Shown here piece after piece: positions 2,249 through 35,123 of a stretch of 40,716 nt of DNA. The notes below the pieces were generated by a model. It was not told the DNA's origin. It saw only the letters and a list, made by a program, of their open reading frames with translations, and did no database searches. Source of the DNA: a virus. Lineage: Duplodnaviria; Heunggongvirae; Uroviricota; Caudoviricetes. The stretch lies in IMG/VR virus record IMGVR_UViG_2636415959_000005. The stretch is one strand, 5' to 3'. The first letter of the stretch is position 1, and each line of letters starts with the position of its first letter. The position numbers were made by a program, and so were the translations under genes.

Positions 2249-3960
2249 TTATAGTAGTCTGGTAATGCTAAATGCAAACGAACTGGAGATTCCTGCTCCG
2301 CTAAGCGTATTGCGCAGGGTCACCCTAAATGTATCTACGCCAATATAAGTAACATCACAACTAACTGAATCAGGCGCAGATATAGGTGTTATCTGAACCA
2401 CATAACCATTAGTAGCTGCTGCGAGCGGATGAGAAAACGTTACATCATACACACCAGTAGCTACCACGCTTACTGAGGACACACCTGGAGCCACATCAAT
2501 GCTGCCATTCGAGTTAATCCTTCCAGAACGAGTAATACTTCCAGCAGAGACAGAAGTAGCCTTGCTGGTTTGCTCCATGAAAGTACAGCCAATATCAATT
2601 ACTTCGCAGTTAGAGCCTGTAACCCAATACGGTCGCGAGGCGCTTGGGACGTAAGAACCTACGCTCTTGAATGTCGTACCATTGAGAATTACAGTTACTT
2701 TTCCACCGCCAGAGCTTGTAATATTTAAGTTGTTTATGGTGTACATCGTACTGCTAACACGATGGAAGTTGCCGCCGTTAATAATTACGGTGACGGGGCG
2801 CGTTCCCGTGTTATCAATGCCAAGGTCAGAACCACCAGCGTTAGCCTCAAAATATGGGTTATTAAGTACCAAAGCACATGACCCATTAAGACCGTTCACG
2901 GCAATCTGCATACCGCCAGTGCCAGTATTACCTTGCGTGCCGTTACCCTCACAGGTAAGGCTATTGATGGTAGTCCCTGCGCCCCATCTGTCACCAAGTA
3001 TACCCCATTGTGTATTCTGGCTTGCGGTTAATCTGTTGACAGTAATTGCATTAAGTTCTGAAAAATCATCAGAATTAAGCACTCGCCACCCAATACGATT
3101 TGCCTGCAGGTACACATTATCCAATTCAGAAGTCAATACAGCGTCTGTTCGTAAACCTTCGCCGTTGGTATGTCCGTAAGATACTATATTCTCTAACTTG
3201 GCATATGCTTTCTTGGTTACGAGAAGACCGTAAGACGTTGCTGAGCCTTTAAGCGTAATATTTCCGAGATAATCATACGCATGTACTCGCTGTGTGCCAC
3301 CAACTGTATCACCGAGCATCTTTAAGTTGAAATCCGAGGCATGGCAGTTAAATATCGTTTCTGCCATATTTTCTCCGGAATAATGAGCACGGACTCCTGT
3401 CGAACCAATAAATTTAGCGTCATAGTTGCCGTAATCAAGAACGAGTGGTGACGCGATATCGTACACCCCTTGCTTTATTTTTAATGTTCCACCGAAAGGC
3501 CACGATGTAAGCGGGTCTTGATATATTTCATTTTTTATTGCAAATAGCTCCTCTTGGAGATTTTTGCCGCTATTAGTGCCAATGTGAGCAGCTCCTTCAT
3601 CTGATTGAAGTAACTGCTTTAACTGATCAGGATCGTACTTCAGCACATTCTGAAAATAGAACTGCTGCGAACCATACGCATCATATACAGCCATTGAATG
3701 GCCTTGCTCAGTTACAAATTTGGCAATCTGCCCGTTGTACACAGGATATCCGGCAGCATTGATAACAATTGGCTGAGAAACAGGGACGTGAGATCCGTCT
3801 TCATTCTCTACATAAACCTGAATCTGGTTTTCAGGATTTACCGGGTCAGTGTCAATTTTTCCGATATAAATTTTGCCATTGGCTACGGCTTTAAAAGAAC
3901 GCGCCATAGTGAAGAGTTGCGAAGGCATGCTTACCACAATATTTGCGGTGATATCTGACA
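2249..3960 (-). CDS. Tailspike protein (P22 gp9-like N-terminal head-binding domain, distinct receptor-binding domain)
   Basis: N-terminus [13 protein letters not shown]…[13 protein letters not shown]…LKYDPDQ matches the P22 tailspike head-binding domain; start set at MSDITAN (track ORF runs to 4009). Confidence 0.85.
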
Positions 3961-29095: not shown

Positions 29096-29530
29096 ATGCG
29101 GAACAGAATCATGCCTGGTGTTTACATAGTAATAATTCCTTACGTTATCGTAAGCATTTGCTATCTCCTTTTCCGCCACTACATTCCTGGTGTTTCTTTT
29201 TCAGCTCATAGAGATGGCCTTGGGGCGACATTGTCATCATATGCAGGAACCATGATTGCAATCCTGATTGCTGCCTTGACGTTTCTAATCGGAAGCAGAA
29301 CGCGCCGACTGGCCAAGATTAGAGAGTATGGGTATATGACATCGGTAGTTATTGTCTATGCCCTTAGTTTTGTTGAGCTTGGAGCTTTGTTTTTCTGCGG
29401 GTTATTGCTTCTTTCCAGCATAAGCGGCTACATGATACCCACTATCGCCATCGGCATTGCCTCTGCATCGTTCATTCATATATGCATCCTTGTTTTCCAA
29501 CTATATAATTTGACCAGAGAACAAGAATAA
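29096..29530 (+). CDS. rexB: RexB (Rex system membrane protein)
   Basis: 144 aa polytopic membrane protein; matches lambda RexB as I recall it. Confidence 0.9.
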   Translation: MRNRIMPGVYIVIIPYVIVSICYLLFRHYIPGVSFSAHRDGLGATLSSYAGTMIAILIAALTFLIGSRTRRLAKIREYGYMTSVVIVYALSFVELGALFFCGLLLLSSISGYMIPTIAIGIASASFIHICILVFQLYNLTREQE

Positions 29531-29557
29531 CCCGGCCACCGAGCCGGGTTTTTTATT
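29531..29557 (+). terminator. Rho-independent terminator after rexB
   Basis: cccggc-caccga-gccggg followed by ttttttatt directly after the rexB stop. Confidence 0.8.
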
Positions 29558-30531: not shown

Positions 30532-30564
30532 CCGCATCAGCGGGTAACGACAGAGGGTAAGGGG

Positions 30565-30861
30565 ATGATCGACGACATCAAGCGCATCGACTCAATGATA
30601 AATGCGCTTCGCAATATGAAACAGGACATCAAGCGTCAGCAGAAACTAAGTGAAATAAACAGTTTAGACCTGTCGCCGAAGCAAGCTCAAAAGCGCAATG
30701 CCGATGCTGACTGGATTGCGATGGAACAGATTAAGCGTCGGCATGAGCTGCACGCTCTGTCTGTTGAGCTTGGGTTCGCTGAGCGCCGGGAAAGTTATGC
30801 TCCATTTGAATTAACTGACGGGTGGCACCGATTCGACCACAAGCCGCGCGAACCTCAATAG
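30565..30861 (+). CDS. Hypothetical protein (98 aa)
   Basis: ORF in the pL operon, followed directly by a terminator. Confidence 0.5.
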   Translation: MIDDIKRIDSMINALRNMKQDIKRQQKLSEINSLDLSPKQAQKRNADADWIAMEQIKRRHELHALSVELGFAERRESYAPFELTDGWHRFDHKPREPQ

Positions 30862-30882
30862 CCGCCTAACCAGCGGCTTTTT
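30861..30882 (+). terminator. tL1-like rho-independent terminator
   Basis: gccgc-ctaacca-gcggc followed by tttttcat. Confidence 0.7.
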
Positions 30883-31016
30883 CATACCTGGAGTCATTTA
30901 CGAGTGGCTCAAGTTATGACAACCGGCGGCCATCCACCGCCCATTGAAACACTGAATAAATGCGTTGAAGTCTTGTATTAACCGTTCCGTTCGCCGCGAT
31001 AAGGCCAAGAGGATTT

Positions 31017-31226
31017 ATGAGTGATTTGGAGTTGGGCTTAAAGATATACGCATTATGGTTTGTCGGGACGTTTCTGCTCGGCATAGCAATCAACTCGCTG
31101 ACGAAAAAAGAACATCGCCAGCCACTTTCAAAACTAGCCATTGACCATGTACGCATGTCTTCCGCAATAACCATTGTGGGCCTGATTGTGTGCGGTATGG
31201 GCTGGTTCTTATTCAAGGTGGTGTGA
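31017..31226 (+). CDS. Hypothetical small membrane protein (two predicted transmembrane helices)
   Basis: 69 aa with two hydrophobic stretches; preferred over the antisense ORF 30914..31216. Confidence 0.45.
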   Translation: MSDLELGLKIYALWFVGTFLLGIAINSLTKKEHRQPLSKLAIDHVRMSSAITIVGLIVCGMGWFLFKVV

Positions 31227-31227
31227 G

Positions 31228-31386
31228 ATGACAGTCACCCACAACGGCAAGCAGTACACCGCCAAAAAGCTCAACGATAACGAGTGGCAGCTGACGTCGG
31301 TATCTAACCCGCGTGAAAAGCTGACGATGAACCGCTGGCATATGAAGCTGGCTGGCCTCCTGGAACAGGTTGAGGTGAAGGCATGA
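31228..31386 (+). CDS. Hypothetical small protein (52 aa)
   Basis: MTVTHNGKQYTAKKLNDNEWQL…; ATG 2 nt after the upstream stop. Confidence 0.45.
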   Translation: MTVTHNGKQYTAKKLNDNEWQLTSVSNPREKLTMNRWHMKLAGLLEQVEVKA

Positions 31387-31592
31387 TCAACCACTACGGC
31401 ACCACCCCGCTCATTCGCCAGTGCGTCACGCCCGGCATGATGGCATTGCATGAAGGCCGCACATATCGCGTCTCAGCAGTCATTCAGGAGCGCAAATGGG
31501 TATACCTGCACACTGACGCAGAAATAATCCGACTCAGTGACTGCGTGATTGACGTCCTTCTTGACGGTCACGGCAACCCTATCCAGCACTAA
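31383..31592 (+). CDS. Hypothetical small protein (69 aa)
   Basis: ATGA overlap with the upstream ORF; no homolog recognised. Confidence 0.45.
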   Translation: MINHYGTTPLIRQCVTPGMMALHEGRTYRVSAVIQERKWVYLHTDAEIIRLSDCVIDVLLDGHGNPIQH

Positions 31593-31662
31593 CCACCCTA
31601 TTCAACCGTTCGGCCTGGCATTACGCGGGCGGGATCTGCACATCCAAATTTCAGGAGAAACC

Positions 31663-32664
31663 ATGAGCGAAGTAACGGACTTAACTGTCATCGAAATCAA
31701 GCCGGAACAGGCCCCAGTGCTTTACGTAGCGGGCGGCCTTGACGCGTACCTTGAGCAAATCCGCCAGGCTGTAAACGAAGTGCCGGACCTGTCCACGAAG
31801 AAAGGCCGTGATCGTGTTGCCTCTCTGGCAGCGCAGGTGTCCCGCAGCAAGACGGCAATCGAAAAGCCGGGCCGTGAGTACCTGAAGCGCCTGAAAGAGG
31901 CTGTGCGTCCGGCTGAGGCCGAAATTAAGCGATTCGTTGATGCCTGCGACGAGCTGCGCGATGCGACCCGCCGCCCACTCACCGAATGGGAAGCCGAGCA
32001 GGAACGCATTAAGGCTGAAGAAGCCATGAACGCGATGCACGCCGAAGCGCTGGAGATGAACATCAGGTTCGATCAGGAGCTGGCTGCCAAGTTCGAAGCG
32101 GACCACGAAATGGCTCTACTGATGAACAAGGATTTTGACCGTGACCGCGAAGAGCAGCGCCGTCTGGCGGAACAGGCTCAGCGTGAACGTGATGATCGGC
32201 TGAAACAGGAAGCGGCAGAACAAGCCCGCCGCGATGCCGAAGCAAAGGCAAAAGCCGAAATTGAAGCAGCAGCAAGGCGAGAAGCAGAAGCTAAGGCCGC
32301 AGCGGAACGTGCAGAGCGTGAACGCATTGAAGCCGAGCAACGAGCACAGCGCGAAGCAAAAGAGGCAGCAGAACGAGCTGAAAGAGAAAAGCAGGCGGCA
32401 ATTGAAGCAGAACGCCGAAAAGCACAGGAGGAGGCTGAACGAATCCGGCGCGAGGCTGAAGCAAAAGAGCAAGCCAGAATAGCAGAAGAAAAAAGAATCA
32501 AGGAAGAAGAAGAGTGTAGAGCAAAGGATAAAGCTCACCGGAAAGAAGTAAATAACAAAATACTTGCTGACCTTATCAAGGTTGGCGCATCAGAAGATGT
32601 TGCTAAAAATATCATAACAGCCATCGTAAAAGGCGAAGTATTCGCAACAAAAATAACCTACTAA
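31663..32664 (+). CDS. Hypothetical protein with long charged low-complexity (Ala/Glu/Lys/Arg-rich) coiled-coil region
   Basis: 333 aa from MSEVTDLTVIEIK…; aggag RBS; residues about 160–290 are repeats of the type EAKAKAEIEAAARREAEAKAAAERAE. Confidence 0.7.
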   Translation: MSEVTDLTVIEIKPEQAPVLYVAGGLDAYLEQIRQAVNEVPDLSTKKGRDRVASLAAQVSRSKTAIEKPGREYLKRLKEAVRPAEAEIKRFVDACDELRDATRRPLTEWEAEQERIKAEEAMNAMHAEALEMNIRFDQELAAKFEADHEMALLMNKDFDRDREEQRRLAEQAQRERDDRLKQEAAEQARRDAEAKAKAEIEAAARREAEAKAAAERAERERIEAEQRAQREAKEAAERAEREKQAAIEAERRKAQEEAERIRREAEAKEQARIAEEKRIKEEEECRAKDKAHRKEVNNKILADLIKVGASEDVAKNIITAIVKGEVFATKITY

Positions 32665-32688: not shown

Positions 32689-32835
32689 ATGATTTACGCA
32701 ATCGCGGGAGGCGCTCGCATGGGTGCCTTCCAATTAAATGAATCTTTACTTGAACGAATCACCCGTAAATTACGTGACGGATGGAAACGACTCATCGACG
32801 TACTTAATCAGCCAGGAGTTCCAAAAAATGGATAA
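32689..32835 (+). CDS. cIII: CIII (FtsH protease inhibitor)
   Basis: 48 aa (MIYAIAGGARMGAFQLNESLLERITRKLRDGWKRLIDVLNQPGVPKNG) containing the conserved core I recall from lambda CIII; below the ORF-track cutoff. Confidence 0.8.
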   Translation: MIYAIAGGARMGAFQLNESLLERITRKLRDGWKRLIDVLNQPGVPKNG

Positions 32836-32941
32836 AACACTTATGGCTATTCAGACTAAATTCACTATCGCCACTTTTATTGGCGATGAAAAGATGTTTC
32901 GTGAGGCCGTCGAAGCCTACAGAAAATGGAGGTCTAAATGA
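32828..32941 (+). CDS. kil: Kil-like host cell-division inhibitor
   Basis: 37 aa (MDKTLMAIQTKFTIATFIGDEKMFREAVEAYRKWRSK) in the lambda kil position; aggag RBS; resembles lambda Kil as I recall it. Confidence 0.6.
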   Translation: MDKTLMAIQTKFTIATFIGDEKMFREAVEAYRKWRSK

Positions 32942-33126
32942 TTCCGGTAGAGCTGGCGAAAACTCCAGAGTTAAGTCGATTAAAAAGAGAATATCACATT
33001 GCTGAGGCTCGTTACTGGCGTAAAGCGGGAGATAAATCAAAGAAACAACTTTGTTTATGGCAAGCACAAAGAGAGCGCATGAATGAGCGCGAATTTCTTT
33101 CCTCCCCATCCGAATTACCATTCTGA
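32938..33126 (+). CDS. Hypothetical protein (62 aa) in the position lambda gam occupies
   Basis: Unrelated to lambda Gam as I recall it; ATGA overlap with the upstream gene. Confidence 0.45.
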   Translation: MIPVELAKTPELSRLKREYHIAEARYWRKAGDKSKKQLCLWQAQRERMNEREFLSSPSELPF

Positions 33127-33134
33127 GGTGAATT

Positions 33135-33842
33135 ATGGATTTGAATAAATTCGATGAGCCATTCAGCCCTGAAGATATCGAATGGCGAATACAGCAAAGC
33201 GGTAAAACACGCGATGGAAAGGTGTGGGCTATGGTGCTGGCTTATGTCACGAACAGGGCAATCATGAAACGCCTGGACGATGTTTGCGGCAAAGCAGGAT
33301 GGCGCAATGAATACCGCGATATTCCCAACAACGGCGGCGTTGAATGCGGCATATCAATAAAGATTGATTCCGAATGGGTAACCAAATGGGATGCTGCTGA
33401 AAACACGCAGGTAGAAGCCGTCAAAGGTGGTCGTTCCGGTGCAATGAAGCGCGCTGCCGTTCAGTGGGGAATCGGTCGGTATCTGTATAACCTTGAGGAA
33501 GGTTTCGCACAAACATCTATCGATAAAAAGCAGGGGTGGCACAGGGCAAAACTGAAGGATGGAACAGGATTTTACTGGCTCCCTCCATCGCTTCCGGGAT
33601 GGGCAATCCCAGCATCAGATAACAAACCATCACCAGAAAATACCAACCAGAAATCTCCATCGGTTGACTGCGAACAAATCCTGAAAGACTTCAGCGATTA
33701 TGCGTCAACAGAAACTGACAAGAAAAAACTCATCGAGCGTTATCAGCGTGACTGGCAATTAATGGCTGGCAACGAGGAGGCGCAGGCTAAATGCGTTCAG
33801 GTAATGAACATCAGAGTTAACGAACTAAAACAGGCGGCATAA
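33135..33842 (+). CDS. Single-strand annealing protein, Rad52/Sak-like (functional analogue of lambda Bet)
   Basis: 235 aa; motif …GGRSGAMKRAAVQWGIGRYLYNL… typical of phage Rad52-family annealing proteins; gaggtg RBS. Confidence 0.65.
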   Translation: MDLNKFDEPFSPEDIEWRIQQSGKTRDGKVWAMVLAYVTNRAIMKRLDDVCGKAGWRNEYRDIPNNGGVECGISIKIDSEWVTKWDAAENTQVEAVKGGRSGAMKRAAVQWGIGRYLYNLEEGFAQTSIDKKQGWHRAKLKDGTGFYWLPPSLPGWAIPASDNKPSPENTNQKSPSVDCEQILKDFSDYASTETDKKKLIERYQRDWQLMAGNEEAQAKCVQVMNIRVNELKQAA

Positions 33843-34310
33843 ATGTATCACTTGGACGGAATTATTAAAAGATTCGAGTCCAGCTACAAAGTTAATGAAA
33901 CAACAGGTTGCTGGGAGTCTACCTATTCAAAAAACAAAGGAGGATACACAAAATTTGTAGCCTTTGGCGTAACAATGCTTTCTCATCGTGTTGCTTTTGA
34001 GCTTTATCACTCCCCCATTCCATCTGGGAAGATGGTTTGCCACAAATGCGATAACCCATGCTGCGTTAATCCTGAACATCTCTTTTTAGGTAGCGCGCAA
34101 GAAAACATGGACGACAAGATAGCAAAAGGAAGGCATCGTGGAGCCAAGAAAGGTCATGCTCATCATGGTGCAAAATTAACAGAGTGGCAGGTTATAGAAA
34201 TTAGGAAAAGACTCTCTGAAAAAGAGAGTCAGTACAAGATAGCAAAAGACATGGGTGTATCTCAATCAATTATAAGCAACATAAAAACTGGCAAGAGGTG
34301 GAGCAAATGA
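33843..34310 (+). CDS. HNH endonuclease with C-terminal DNA-binding region
   Basis: 155 aa; HNH signature [44 protein letters not shown]; overlapping start and stop with neighbours. Confidence 0.85.
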
Positions 34311-34813
34311 GTTCTCGCGGGATAAATAAGGTGATTATCCTTGGTCGGGTAGGACAAGACCCGGAAGTTCGATACTCACCATCAGGAACAGCGTTCGCTA
34401 ACCTGACAATAGCCACGTCAGAACAATGGCGAGATAAAAATACTGGCGAGCAAAAGGAATTGACTGAATGGCATCGTGTTGCTGTATCCGGGAAACTGGC
34501 TGAGGTCGTGGGGCAGTATGTGAAAAAAGGTGATCAGATTTATTTCGAGGGAATGCTGAGAACCAGAAAGTGGAAAGACCAGTCAGGGCAAGACCGTTAC
34601 ACAACCGAGGTTCATGTCGGAATTAATGGCGTGATGCAAATGCTTGGCGGCATTGGCGACAGCAAACAACAAGCAGCCAGCAGGCAATCACAGAAGCCAC
34701 AGCAGCAATCATCACCAGCACAACACAACGAACCTCCGATGGATTTTGACGACAATATACCCTTTGCACCAGTAACTCTCCCCTTCCCTCGTCACGCTAT
34801 TCACGCAATTTAA
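34307..34813 (+). CDS. ssb: Single-stranded DNA-binding protein (SSB) with C-terminal extension
   Basis: [23 protein letters not shown]…TEWHRV…[17 protein letters not shown] parallels E. coli SSB; acidic tip [11 protein letters not shown] is followed by 15 more residues. Confidence 0.9.
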
Positions 34814-34826
34814 TCAGGAGAAAATC

Positions 34827-35123
34827 ATGCCAGCGCCTCTGTATGGTGCGGATGACCCGCGCCGCTGTTCCGGCAATTCCGTATCGGAGGTGCTGGAAAG
34901 TATCAAGAATAATCTCGGCGCGTTTCTTGCTCTGCCACCAGAAACAAAAGCAGAACGGAAGTACCGACGCGATATACAACTCGCAGAAAAACAGGAAAAA
35001 GACCGAATAAACGAAACATCAATCCGACCATTCCGCAAAGCCACATATACCCACTTCCCTGAATATATCGACCCGCGCCTGCGTAATTACCGCTCACGCT
35101 ATGGCGCTATCAGTAATGACTGA
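34827..35123 (+). CDS. Hypothetical protein (98 aa)
   Basis: ORF in the same operon with an RBS; no homolog recognised. Confidence 0.45.

What the first reader, a model, noticed from the sequence alone, without database searches (positions are those of the whole stretch)
31663..32664. 333-aa protein with an approximately 130-residue Ala/Glu/Lys/Arg repeat tract
The central third is almost pure EAKAKAE/AERAERE-type repeats, giving GAA/GCA-rich DNA that is open in several frames (the source of overlapping track ORFs on both strands). This resembles a charged single alpha-helix or TolA-like spacer. The N-terminal 120 residues are non-repetitive and could be the functional head.
Basis: seen in the sequence. 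Interest (0 to 1): 0.4.

Follow-up and report, generated by a model that had tools for sequence, protein, structure and literature searches.

The report
Phage recombination-module protein with rigid helical spacer
This prophage gene encodes a member of a very large, uncharacterised phage protein family that almost always sits beside the phage's DNA-recombination genes; its Ala/Glu/Lys/Arg stretch has the sequence signature of a stiff single alpha-helix joining a conserved head to a small conserved tail domain.

Summary
The CDS at 31663-32664 (+) encodes 333 aa, and residues 162-291 are at least 90% A/E/K/R/Q. The tract is compositional, not a tandem repeat. It has the signature of a charged single alpha-helix: 6% hydrophobic residues, no heptad periodicity, and twice the expected i/i+4 opposite-charge pairs (z=5.6). 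There is no membrane anchor, so it is not TolA.

The protein belongs to PHROG 1376 (unknown function). It is a chimera: residues 1 to about 195 match phi80 Agt ("antidote for GamL") and residues from about 196 to 333 match Sf6 gp33. The crossover lies inside the tract.

The family has 4,209 clusters at 50% identity and no Pfam model. Its plan is conserved: an N-domain of about 120 aa with a basic amphipathic helix, a charged helix of 50-241 aa, and a 42-aa C-terminal domain ending in I-x-Y that weakly resembles RuvA domain III/UBA.

In 241 of 265 loci from five phage clades the gene lies within 1.5 kb of a single-strand-annealing gene (RecT, ERF or Rad52 type), usually 8-11 bp away.

Best reading: an accessory head-spacer-tail tether of the phage recombination module. 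Its partners are unknown. It is a new chimeric member of a known but barely studied family.

The parts
31653..31657 (+). Shine-Dalgarno AGGAG, 5 nt upstream of the ATG
   Evidence: Read directly from the sequence.
31663..32664 (+). CDS of 333 aa. Member of PHROG 1376, the phi80 Agt / Sf6 gp33 family.
   Evidence: PHROG 1376 matches full length at E=2e-110. Homologues at 96% identity and the same 333-aa length exist.
31663..31797 (+). Residues 1-45: acidic N-terminal cap. It has a conserved hydrophobic stretch L7-x-x-I10-x-I12, two short helices, and the loop E-V-P-D-L-T-T.
   Evidence: AF2 gives H14-20 and H27-36. Column conservation is. pI is 4.05.
31798..31992 (+). Residues 46-110: the most conserved part of the family, a basic amphipathic helix with the motif KKGRxRIASLAAQVSRSKTAVEKPGREYLK...LRDEVRxPLTxWE.
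   Evidence: Nearly invariant residues (90% or more of 101 sequences): D42 T45 G48 R49 S54 S62 K63 G70 K78 D96 R103 P105 E110. For residues 46-104, pI is 10.2, net charge +7, and the hydrophobic 3.5-residue periodicity has p<0.001.
31993..32145 (+). Residues 111-161: clade-specific acidic helical segment followed by a predicted hinge at 155-164.
   Evidence: Not conserved across the family. pLDDT is below 50 at residues 155-163.
32146..32535 (+). Residues 162-291: A/E/K/R/Q tract, predicted charged single alpha-helix spacer. At 0.15 nm per residue this is about 19-21 nm if fully helical.
32167..32354 (+). Crossover zone of the chimera. Both the phi80-like and the Sf6-like sequence align here. 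At protein level the switch lies at about residues 186-197.
   Evidence: megablast, protein three-way alignment, local blastn.
32536..32661 (+). Residues 292-333: conserved C-terminal domain, HRKxVNNxxxxxLxxxGxxExxAKxIxxAIxxGxVxxxxIxY-COOH. It is the Sf6-type allele.
   Evidence: At least four alleles occur among close relatives. The domain is conserved family-wide, with G23 and the terminal Tyr at 90% or more. Weak similarity to RuvA domain III / UBA.
31383..31592 (+). Upstream neighbour: kil, phi80 type.
   Evidence: PHROG 294. 97% aa identity to phi80 Kil. Window 30532-31583 is 99.2% identical to phi80 DNA.
32689..32835 (+). Downstream neighbour: cIII.
   Evidence: PHROG 550, E=6e-29.
33135..33842 (+). 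Single-strand annealing protein. Pfam calls it Rad52/22; Sf6 annotates its counterpart as Erf-like.
   Evidence: Pfam PF04098, E=7e-26. PHROG 1097. 98% DNA identity to Sf6 gene 28.
34298..34813 (+). SSB gene of the recombination module.
   Evidence: The translation begins ...[20 protein letters not shown], read here as SSB-like from the sequence alone. It aligns at 70% DNA identity with the Sf6 SSB gene region.
34827..35123 (+). Abc2, the P22-type anti-RecBCD protein. The window has no gamL.
   Evidence: Pfam PF11043, E=1.5e-42. tblastn with GamL finds no hit in the window.

Best explanation
What it is. The gene encodes an accessory protein of the phage early-left recombination (Rec) module, built as head - rigid spacer - tail.

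The head (residues 1 to about 120) is a small acidic cap on a strongly conserved basic amphipathic helix. I infer that this helix binds nucleic acid or a conserved host protein, and possibly self-associates.

The A/E/K/R/Q tract is a salt-bridge-stabilised single alpha-helix. It is neither a coiled coil nor a membrane spanner. It holds the 42-residue C-terminal domain roughly 20 nm from the head.

The tail is a small protein-protein interaction module that may be UBA/RuvA-III-like.

How it would work. By analogy with phi80 Agt, the protein would act at recombination or DNA-end-processing sites together with the phage annealing protein. There it would modulate how host end-processing enzymes (RecBCD/SbcCD) or their phage inhibitors act.

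A second role of the tract. Its low-complexity DNA also serves as the recombination joint at which heads and tails of different phage lineages are reassorted, as happened in this gene.

Shown: the anatomy, the helix signature, family size and conservation, the linkage to annealing-protein genes, and the chimerism.
Inferred: the binding partners and the molecular activity.
For: Family membership and conservation:
- PHROG 1376 matches full length.
- The first 160 residues are 98.8% identical to phi80 Agt. GenBank annotates that gene "anti-toxin for Gam / modifier of Gam", and annotates gamL as "toxic without Mog".
- The N-domain alone finds 4,209 clusters at 50% identity with E<=1e-3. Nearly all listed full-length members share the head / charged tract / I-x-Y tail plan.

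Single-helix signature:
- In the window protein: 6% hydrophobic residues, no 3.5-residue periodicity (p=0.63), and i/i+4 ion pairs at z=5.6.
- Family-wide: median z=3.85, with 87% of members above 2.
- AF2 models helix 165-306 at high pLDDT.

Linkage to recombination genes:
- 241 of 265 loci (91%) from enteric, Pseudomonas, Acinetobacter, rhizobial and Vibrio-like phages have an annealing-protein gene within 1.5 kb. The median gap is 8-11 bp in the Pseudomonas and Acinetobacter clades and 5.5 bp in the rhizobial clade.
- Three different annealing-protein families are involved: RecT, ERF and Rad52.
- Annotated examples are D3, JBD44, phiLM21, TCUAN1, PhiPLPE and phiV039C.

Independence of head and tail:
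- They reassort freely, and the tail allele does not track GamL versus Erf modules. This points to conserved targets rather than phage-specific ones.

Length:
- The distance from the RxPLTxWE motif to the C-terminus has an interquartile range of 212-243 aa family-wide. It is 243 +/- 1 in 80 D3-type loci spanning 77-100% identity. This argues that spacer length is under selection.
Against: - No activity has been tested for this protein. The only experimental datum for the family is the phi80 agt/gamL cloning result, known here from a GenBank annotation and my memory of the abstract; the paper itself is not held.
- The window has no gamL, so that specific role cannot apply here.
- The RuvA-III/UBA resemblance is marginal, with E=0.03-0.09 against PDB and hits in 4 of 52 members against Pfam.
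- AF2 pTM is only 0.34, so the relative arrangement of the parts is not predicted.
- Close enteric relatives tolerate spacers as short as 31 aa, so a fixed distance is not essential.
- Gene adjacency is association, not mechanism.
Confidence: 0.5

Rival explanations
1. It is a dedicated antitoxin or modifier of the phage RecBCD/SbcCD inhibitor GamL, as annotated for phi80 agt, and has no other role.
For: The phi80 annotation reads "anti-toxin for Gam", with gamL "toxic without Mog". In about 59 of 80 enteric loci carrying this N-domain allele, gamL is present, and it starts 8 bp after the stop codon in the loci printed.
Against: The window has no gamL and uses Abc2 instead. About 20 of 80 loci with a near-identical head have Erf/SSB modules without gamL. 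None of 185 Pseudomonas, Acinetobacter, rhizobial, Vibrio-like or Iodobacter loci has a GamL homologue within the fetched flanks. The tail allele does not covary with gamL presence.
Confidence: 0.12
2. It is itself the anti-nuclease or DNA-end-protecting component of the module, a functional analogue of lambda Gam or Mu Gam occupying the "gam slot" of an X-annealase-exonuclease trio.
For: In D3, JBD44, phiLM21 and TCUAN1 the gene order is X - annealing protein - YqaJ/lambda-type exonuclease, parallel to gam-bet-exo. No GamL, Abc2 or lambda-Gam homologue occurs in 185 non-enteric loci, whereas 173 of them carry an exonuclease. In Firmicutes phages the same slot holds Mu-Gam-like, DUF2483, DUF1351 or Gp157 genes, which were proposed to be functional analogues (PMC8093625).
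Against: It co-occurs with GamL (phi80) or Abc2 (this window, Sf6), which would be redundant. hhalign against GamL and lambda Gam gives probability below 1%. The conserved helix is basic, not a DNA mimic. In phi80 it is reported to reduce, not add to, Gam toxicity. Mu-Gam-type inhibitors were not searched for.
Confidence: 0.2
3. The tract has no structural job. It is a tolerated low-complexity linker whose DNA merely provides homology for shuffling two independent domains, and its length drifts neutrally.
For: The chimera junction lies inside the tract. Spacers of 31-165 aa occur among proteins with near-identical heads. Heads and tails reassort.
Against: The i/i+4 ion-pair pattern is specifically maintained family-wide despite sequence divergence. 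Length is narrowly distributed in most of the family and invariant in the D3 clade. 97 of 100 representatives keep a charged tract of 50 aa or more.
Confidence: 0.13
4. It is a TolA-like or other envelope, structural or tail-fibre protein, as several database records call it.
For: Annotations include "TolA", "cell envelope biogenesis protein", "putative tail-fiber protein" and "fibrinogen binding protein". Its composition resembles TolA domain II.
Against: There is no transmembrane segment (maximum Kyte-Doolittle 19-residue mean 1.03). No TolA, Tol-Pal or structural-protein domain appears in Pfam, NCBIfam or PHROGs. The gene lies in the early-left operon between kil and cIII, not among virion genes. 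The database names follow from compositional matches.
Confidence: 0.02

Closest known systems
phi80 (Lula) Agt, PHI80_40, "anti-toxin for Gam / Mog" (Rotman et al. 2012, J Bacteriol 194:6802; GenBank JX871397)
   Same: Residues 1-160 are 98.8% identical, and the match continues to about residue 195. The architecture is the same. The position after kil in the PL operon is the same.
   Different: The C-terminal 140 residues come from another lineage (Sf6 type). The protein is 333 aa rather than 322. In phi80 the next gene is gamL; here it is cIII, and the anti-RecBCD gene is abc2.
Shigella phage Sf6 gene 33 protein (also mEp213/mEp234 "TolA", HK544, CUS-3, Sf101 hypothetical proteins)
   Same: Residues from about 196 to 333 are nearly identical, with 2 differences. 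The downstream context is the same: cIII ... erf-type annealase, ssb, abc2.
   Different: The Sf6 head is a different allele, about 40% identical over residues 1-160. No function is known for Sf6 gp33.
ER/K charged single alpha-helices (myosin VI/X, caldesmon) and engineered (EAAAK)n rigid linkers
   Same: High E/K/R plus Ala content, enrichment of i/i+4 ion pairs, no hydrophobic seam, and a long predicted helix. The comparison with these proteins rests on my own knowledge of them.
   Different: The context is a bacteriophage. The tract is more Ala- and Arg-rich than classical ER/K motifs. Monomeric stability is untested.
TolA domain II
   Same: An Ala/Lys/Glu-rich long helical spacer between two functional ends.
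   Different: No N-terminal membrane anchor, no TolA C-terminal domain, and a cytoplasmic early-operon context.
DUF1351 (PF07083), Sipho_Gp157, DUF2483 and Mu-Gam-like genes of Firmicutes phages
   Same: They occupy the gene slot directly next to erf/recT/sak4 annealing-protein genes, and their function is unknown (PMC8093625).
   Different: No detectable sequence relationship. Pfam gives no hit in 101 family members. hhalign gives probability 0.2-2% against an Enterococcus-phage DUF1351 clade.
RuvA domain III / UBA-like three-helix modules
   Same: The helix-Gly-helix motif xALxALvaLGxxxxxAxxxv aligns with RuvA domain III of T. thermophilus and E. coli and with the LATS2 UBA domain.
   Different: The scores are marginal (E=0.03-0.09). 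The third helix is replaced by a terminal strand-like V-x-I-x-Y. No RuvB link has been shown.

Membership tests
PHROG 1376 / phi80 Agt - Sf6 gp33 family | Full-length match to the family profile | tested here: met
   phrog_1376 at E=2.1e-110, protein 1-333 against profile 1-362.
PHROG 1376 / phi80 Agt - Sf6 gp33 family | Conserved N-domain motif (EVPDLTTKKGR...SKTAVEKPGR...RxPLTxWE) and C-terminal HRxxxN...G...I-x-Y-COOH | tested here: met
   All nearly invariant residues are present in the window protein.
PHROG 1376 / phi80 Agt - Sf6 gp33 family | Location in the early operon next to the recombination module | tested here: met
   Gene order is kil - X - cIII - small ORF - Rad52-type annealase - HNH - SSB - Abc2. 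Family-wide, 91% of loci have an annealase within 1.5 kb.
PHROG 1376 / phi80 Agt - Sf6 gp33 family | Neutralises GamL toxicity (the only reported activity, for phi80 Agt) | not testable with these tools
   This needs an experiment. The partner gene gamL is absent from the window.
Charged single alpha-helix (ER/K SAH) | Long segment dominated by E/K/R (with A, Q) and few hydrophobic residues | tested here: met
   Residues 162-291 are 90% A/E/K/R/Q and 6% ILVMFWY.
Charged single alpha-helix (ER/K SAH) | Excess of i/i+4 opposite-charge pairs and no heptad hydrophobic seam | tested here: met
   43 pairs against 21.6 +/- 3.6 (z=5.6), with other spacings at z<=0.8. The 3.5-residue periodicity has p=0.63. 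The family median z is 3.85.
Charged single alpha-helix (ER/K SAH) | Stable monomeric helix in solution | not testable with these tools
   Only an AF2 prediction is available: helix 165-306, pLDDT above 90 over most of it.
TolA | N-terminal transmembrane anchor | tested here: not met
   The maximum 19-residue Kyte-Doolittle mean is 1.03, and it lies in the C-terminal domain. The N-terminus is acidic and soluble.
TolA | TolA C-terminal domain III or any Tol family model | tested here: not met
   No Pfam or NCBIfam hit reaches its cut-off.
Canonical coiled coil | Heptad periodicity of hydrophobic residues in the tract | tested here: not met
   p=0.63 in residues 162-291. By contrast residues 46-104 do show it (p<0.001), so any self-association would be through the head helix.
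DUF1351 (PF07083) | Match to the Pfam model or profile-profile similarity | tested here: not met
   0 of 101 members hit PF07083. hhalign probability is 0.2% and 2.3%. The DUF1351 profile was shallow, from a single Enterococcus-phage clade.
Gam / GamL / Abc2 anti-RecBCD proteins | Sequence or profile similarity | tested here: not met
Abc2 is a separate gene in the window.
RuvA domain III / UBA-like | Significant profile match to the domain | tested here: inconclusive
   Against PDB: 1ixs E=0.028, 1bdx E=0.043, LATS2 UBA E=0.062. Pfam RuvA_C hits 4 of 52 members, best E=0.0018.
Known anti-phage defence proteins (PADLOC) | Match to any model | tested here: not met
   0 families at E<=0.01.

The most novel reading that the evidence does not exclude
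The family is a so far unrecognised, near-universal third (or fourth) component of single-strand-annealing recombination modules in phages of Proteobacteria. It would be a molecular tether whose basic head binds DNA or a conserved host end-processing or replication protein, and whose UBA/RuvA-III-like tail, held about 20 nm away on a rigid single alpha-helix, recruits or restrains a second factor such as RecBCD/SbcCD, RuvB or SSB. The tether would set how host nucleases and the phage annealase share DNA ends. The single helix would then be a functional ruler. Its low-complexity DNA would double as the joint that lets phages swap heads and tails.
Probability: 0.3. Interest if true: 0.65.

Novelty: new member of a known kind. 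Interest (0 to 1): 0.4.

Why it matters
Phage Red/RecET-type modules are the basis of recombineering and are central to phage mosaic evolution. Their accepted parts list is annealase, exonuclease, SSB and anti-RecBCD protein.

This family is found in thousands of phage lineages. It is adjacent to three different annealase families, and it has no Pfam model and no known function. That suggests a missing accessory part. Identifying its partners could explain the phi80 GamL/Agt toxicity puzzle and might improve recombineering systems outside E. coli.

The family is also a clean natural example of a bacterial-virus single alpha-helix spacer. For this particular window, though, the gene is an ordinary member of the family, distinguished only by being a fresh phi80/Sf6 chimera.

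Tried and rejected
1. Pfam, NCBIfam and PADLOC scans of the whole protein gave nothing above cut-off. A Pfam scan of 101 diverse family members gave no recurrent family.
2. Sequence and profile searches of PDB gave only compositional or marginal hits.
4. Homology to DUF1351 was rejected at the sensitivity available.
5. Homology of the head to GamL or lambda Gam was rejected.
6. RRF hits occurred in 7 of 20 heads (best E=0.0037). I judge these to be generic helical or compositional similarity.
7. I tested whether the tail allele tracks the downstream module (GamL versus Erf), which would have pointed to a phage partner. It does not.
8. I tested whether spacer lengths keep helical phase (period 3.6). 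This gave p=0.003 on the first measure and p=0.02-0.04 on a broader one among enteric relatives. It was not seen family-wide (p=0.18), so it is left as a hint only.
9. The Rotman 2012 paper could not be read. Literature searches found no other functional study of agt, gp33 or the family.
10. TolA membership was rejected.
Full report
OBSERVATION

The + strand ORF from ATG 31663 to TAA 32664 encodes 333 aa. An AGGAG lies 5 nt upstream of the ATG. The mechanical ORF list extends to a TTG at 31549, but every homologue starts MSEVTDL, so 31663 is the start.

The longest stretch with at least 90% A/E/K/R/Q is residues 162-291, 130 aa.

The same DNA is open in other frames. Four minus-strand ORFs of 57-140 aa and one +-frame ORF of 82 aa lie inside it. 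They are codon-composition artefacts.

The word "repeat" needs qualifying. Tandem Repeats Finder reports nothing. The repeat finder reports only dispersed, degenerate, in-frame matches at 70-88% identity.

WHAT THE TRACT IS

- Only 6% of its residues are hydrophobic.
- Hydrophobic/Ala positions show no 3.5-residue periodicity (p=0.63).
- Opposite-charge pairs at i/i+4 number 43, against 21.6 +/- 3.6 in shuffles (z=5.6). Spacings 1-3 and 5-7 show no excess.

This is the sequence signature of a charged single alpha-helix (ER/K type, here Ala- and Arg-rich, close to the engineered (EAAAK)n rigid linker). It is not the signature of a coiled coil.

AlphaFold2 with a 101-sequence alignment models residues 165-306 as one helix with pLDDT above 90 over most of its length. 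It predicts a hinge at 155-164 (pLDDT<50) and gives pTM 0.34.

No segment is hydrophobic enough to span a membrane (maximum 19-residue Kyte-Doolittle mean 1.03). No TolA model matches. The "TolA" labels in databases are therefore compositional.

WHAT THE PROTEIN IS

Pfam, NCBIfam and PADLOC give nothing. PHROG 1376, of unknown function, matches end to end at E=2e-110.

The gene is a chimera.
- Nucleotides 1-628 are 91% identical to phi80 agt.
- Nucleotides 505-1002 are 94-95% identical to Sf6 gene 33 and its relatives.
- At protein level, residues 1 to about 195 equal phi80 Agt and residues from about 196 to 333 equal Sf6 gp33, with two differences from Sf6 gp33 in the tail half and few from phi80 Agt in the head half.
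- The switch lies inside the charged tract, where all three sequences coincide.

The flanks agree with this. Window 30532-31583 is 99.2% phi80 (N to kil). From 32167 onward the window is Sf6-like (cIII, annealase, abc2).

Both parents are 322 aa. The chimera is 333 aa because it inherited the longer version of each half.

Of 5,426 complete E. coli genomes, 625 carry part of the gene but none carries 80% or more of it. Proteins of 333 aa at 96% identity do exist in the larger protein collection.

THE FAMILY

The head alone (residues 1-125) finds 4,209 clusters at 50% identity with E<=1e-3, and 1,139 with E<=1e-10, among 1.84 billion representatives.

Nearly all listed full-length members share one plan.

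1. An N-domain of about 120 aa. Its nearly invariant residues are D42 T45 G48 R49 S54 S62 K63 G70 K78 D96 R103 P105 E110. Residues 46-104 form a basic (pI 10.2, net +7) amphipathic helix with strong 3.5-residue periodicity. A small acidic cap precedes it (H14-20 and H27-36).

2. A charged tract of 50-241 aa, median 146. Its i/i+4 ion-pair excess is maintained, with median z=3.85 and 87% of members above 2.

3. A 42-aa C-terminal domain ending in I-x-Y-COOH. The terminal Tyr is present in 90% or more of sequences.

The tail profile weakly matches the helix-Gly-helix of RuvA domain III and a UBA domain. PDB E-values are 0.028-0.09, and Pfam RuvA_C hits 4 of 52 members. This is a lead, not a finding.

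Spacer length varies among enteric proteins with near-identical heads.
- The spacer ranges from 31 to 165 aa, with a mode of 125. The window protein has 136.
- At least four tail alleles are combined with the same head.

Family-wide, the distance from the RxPLTxWE motif to the C-terminus has an interquartile range of 212-243 aa. The window protein has 223. The value is 243 +/- 1 in 80 D3-type loci that span 77-100% identity. Length therefore looks selected but not strictly fixed.

CONTEXT

In the window the order is N ... kil - X - cIII - 62-aa ORF - Rad52-type annealase - HNH - SSB - Abc2. There is no gamL.

Other phages show the same association.
- In phi80, X (agt) is followed after 8 bp by gamL, recT and exo.
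- D3, JBD44, phiLM21 and TCUAN1 have X - annealase, followed in the first three by an annotated exonuclease, with gaps of 8-12 bp.
- PhiPLPE has recE-recT-X-rdgC.
- phiV039C has erf-ssb-X.

Across 265 loci from five clades, 241 (91%) have an annealase within 1.5 kb. The annealases belong to three Pfam families: RecT, ERF and Rad52_Rad22.

None of the 185 non-enteric loci has a GamL, Abc2 or lambda-Gam homologue in the fetched flanks, while nearly all have an exonuclease. In those phages X therefore sits where gam sits in lambda. Mu-Gam-type genes were not checked.

The tail allele does not covary with GamL versus Erf modules.

FUNCTION

The only functional information is the phi80 record. It annotates agt as "anti-toxin for Gam / Mog (modifier of Gam)" and gamL as a "host RecBCD/SbcCD enzymes inhibitor, toxic without Mog".

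From my memory of the abstract of Rotman et al. 2012, agt was found as the antidote that allows gamL to be cloned, and lysogens behaved as recD and sbcCD phenocopies. That phenocopy was reported for AB1157 and was not reproduced in MG1655 (PMC5862497). The paper itself is not held. A 2025 survey of lambdoid Rec modules does not list this gene (PMC12315714).

Most family members lack gamL, so "Gam antitoxin" cannot be the general role.

The best-supported statement is that X is an accessory protein of the recombination module, built as a tether. A conserved basic head and a small interaction domain are joined by a rigid single helix. It probably acts on conserved targets, either DNA or host end-processing and recombination proteins, because head and tail reassort freely between phages.

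The rivals are listed with their evidence in the rival-explanations section: a GamL-only antitoxin, a Gam analogue, a neutral linker, and an envelope protein.

WHAT FAILED

- Fold searches gave nothing informative.
- PDB sequence and profile searches gave nothing informative.
- Homology to DUF1351, the Firmicutes-phage gene in the equivalent slot (PMC8093625), was not supported.
- Homology to GamL or lambda Gam was not supported.
- RRF hits to the head are probably generic.
- A test for conservation of helical phase in spacer lengths gave p=0.003-0.04 among enteric relatives but nothing family-wide.

VERDICT

The gene is a new chimeric member of a known, very widespread but essentially uncharacterised phage family. 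Interest is moderate. It lies in the family's unexplained and near-constant association with phage annealing proteins, not in this particular copy.

Noticed in passing
window 33843-34310 (+): An HNH endonuclease gene (155 aa; PHROG 59 and others) sits between the Rad52-type annealase and SSB, overlapping the SSB start by 13 nt. In Sf6 the annealase is followed directly by ssb. Sf6-like DNA identity stops at 33845 and resumes weakly at 34323, so this looks like a homing-endonuclease insertion into the Rec module.
   Followed up: partly
window 31583-31597, compared with L001 (phi80) 3040-3938: The 278-aa phi80 gene PHI80_41 that lies between kil and agt is absent here. The 99%-identical phi80-like block ends at 31583 and the agt-like block starts at 31597, at only 88% identity. 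The phi80-like arm therefore contains at least one further mosaic joint.
   Followed up: partly
window 32536-32661; family alignment A3: The last residue of the protein is Tyr in at least 90% of family members (occasionally Phe), preceded by an alternating V/I-x-I-x pattern. A conserved aromatic C-terminus suggests that the free carboxy-terminus itself is recognised by a partner. That idea comes from my own knowledge of C-terminal tail docking in proteins such as SSB.
   Followed up: no
enteric relatives (P0001-P0240, L005-L084): Spacer lengths among close relatives cluster in phase with a 3.6-residue period. The Rayleigh test gives R=0.50, p=0.003 on the first measure and p=0.02-0.04 on a broader one. 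This would be expected if the azimuth of the tail relative to the head matters on a rigid helix. It is not seen across family representatives (p=0.18), several periods were tested, and the sequences are related, so it is only a hint.
   Followed up: partly
L090-L169 (Pseudomonas D3-type loci) compared with L005-L084 (enteric): In 80 D3-type loci spanning 77-100% identity the protein length is essentially fixed (354 aa +/- 1-3). Enteric relatives with near-identical heads range from 229 to 363 aa. The reason for the different tolerance is unknown.
   Followed up: partly
window 32938-33126 (+): A 62-aa ORF between cIII and the annealase matches PHROG 1723, which is labelled "recombinase". It may be a small accessory recombination gene in the position of P22 arf. 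It was not examined.
   Followed up: no
window 31681-32538 (- strand) and 32234-32482 (+ strand, other frame): Six minus-strand ORFs of 53-141 aa and one alternative-frame + ORF of 82 aa lie inside the gene. Their translations are low-complexity (Ser/Ala/Arg/Phe/Leu-rich), as expected for frames through GAA/GCA-rich DNA that lacks stop codons. They are not separate genes.
   Followed up: yes
window 29529-29550 and 30860-30878: A bidirectional GC-rich hairpin with T-runs lies just upstream of N. A terminator-like hairpin follows the 98-aa ORF at 30565-30861, in the region 99% identical to the phi80 N-tL1 segment. They probably correspond to the annotated phi80 tL terminators.
   Followed up: no
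complete E. coli genomes: 625 of 5,426 complete E. coli genomes (11.5%) carry a partial match to this gene, but none covers 80% or more of it. This particular head/tail combination is rare among sequenced complete E. coli genomes even though both halves are common.
   Followed up: partly
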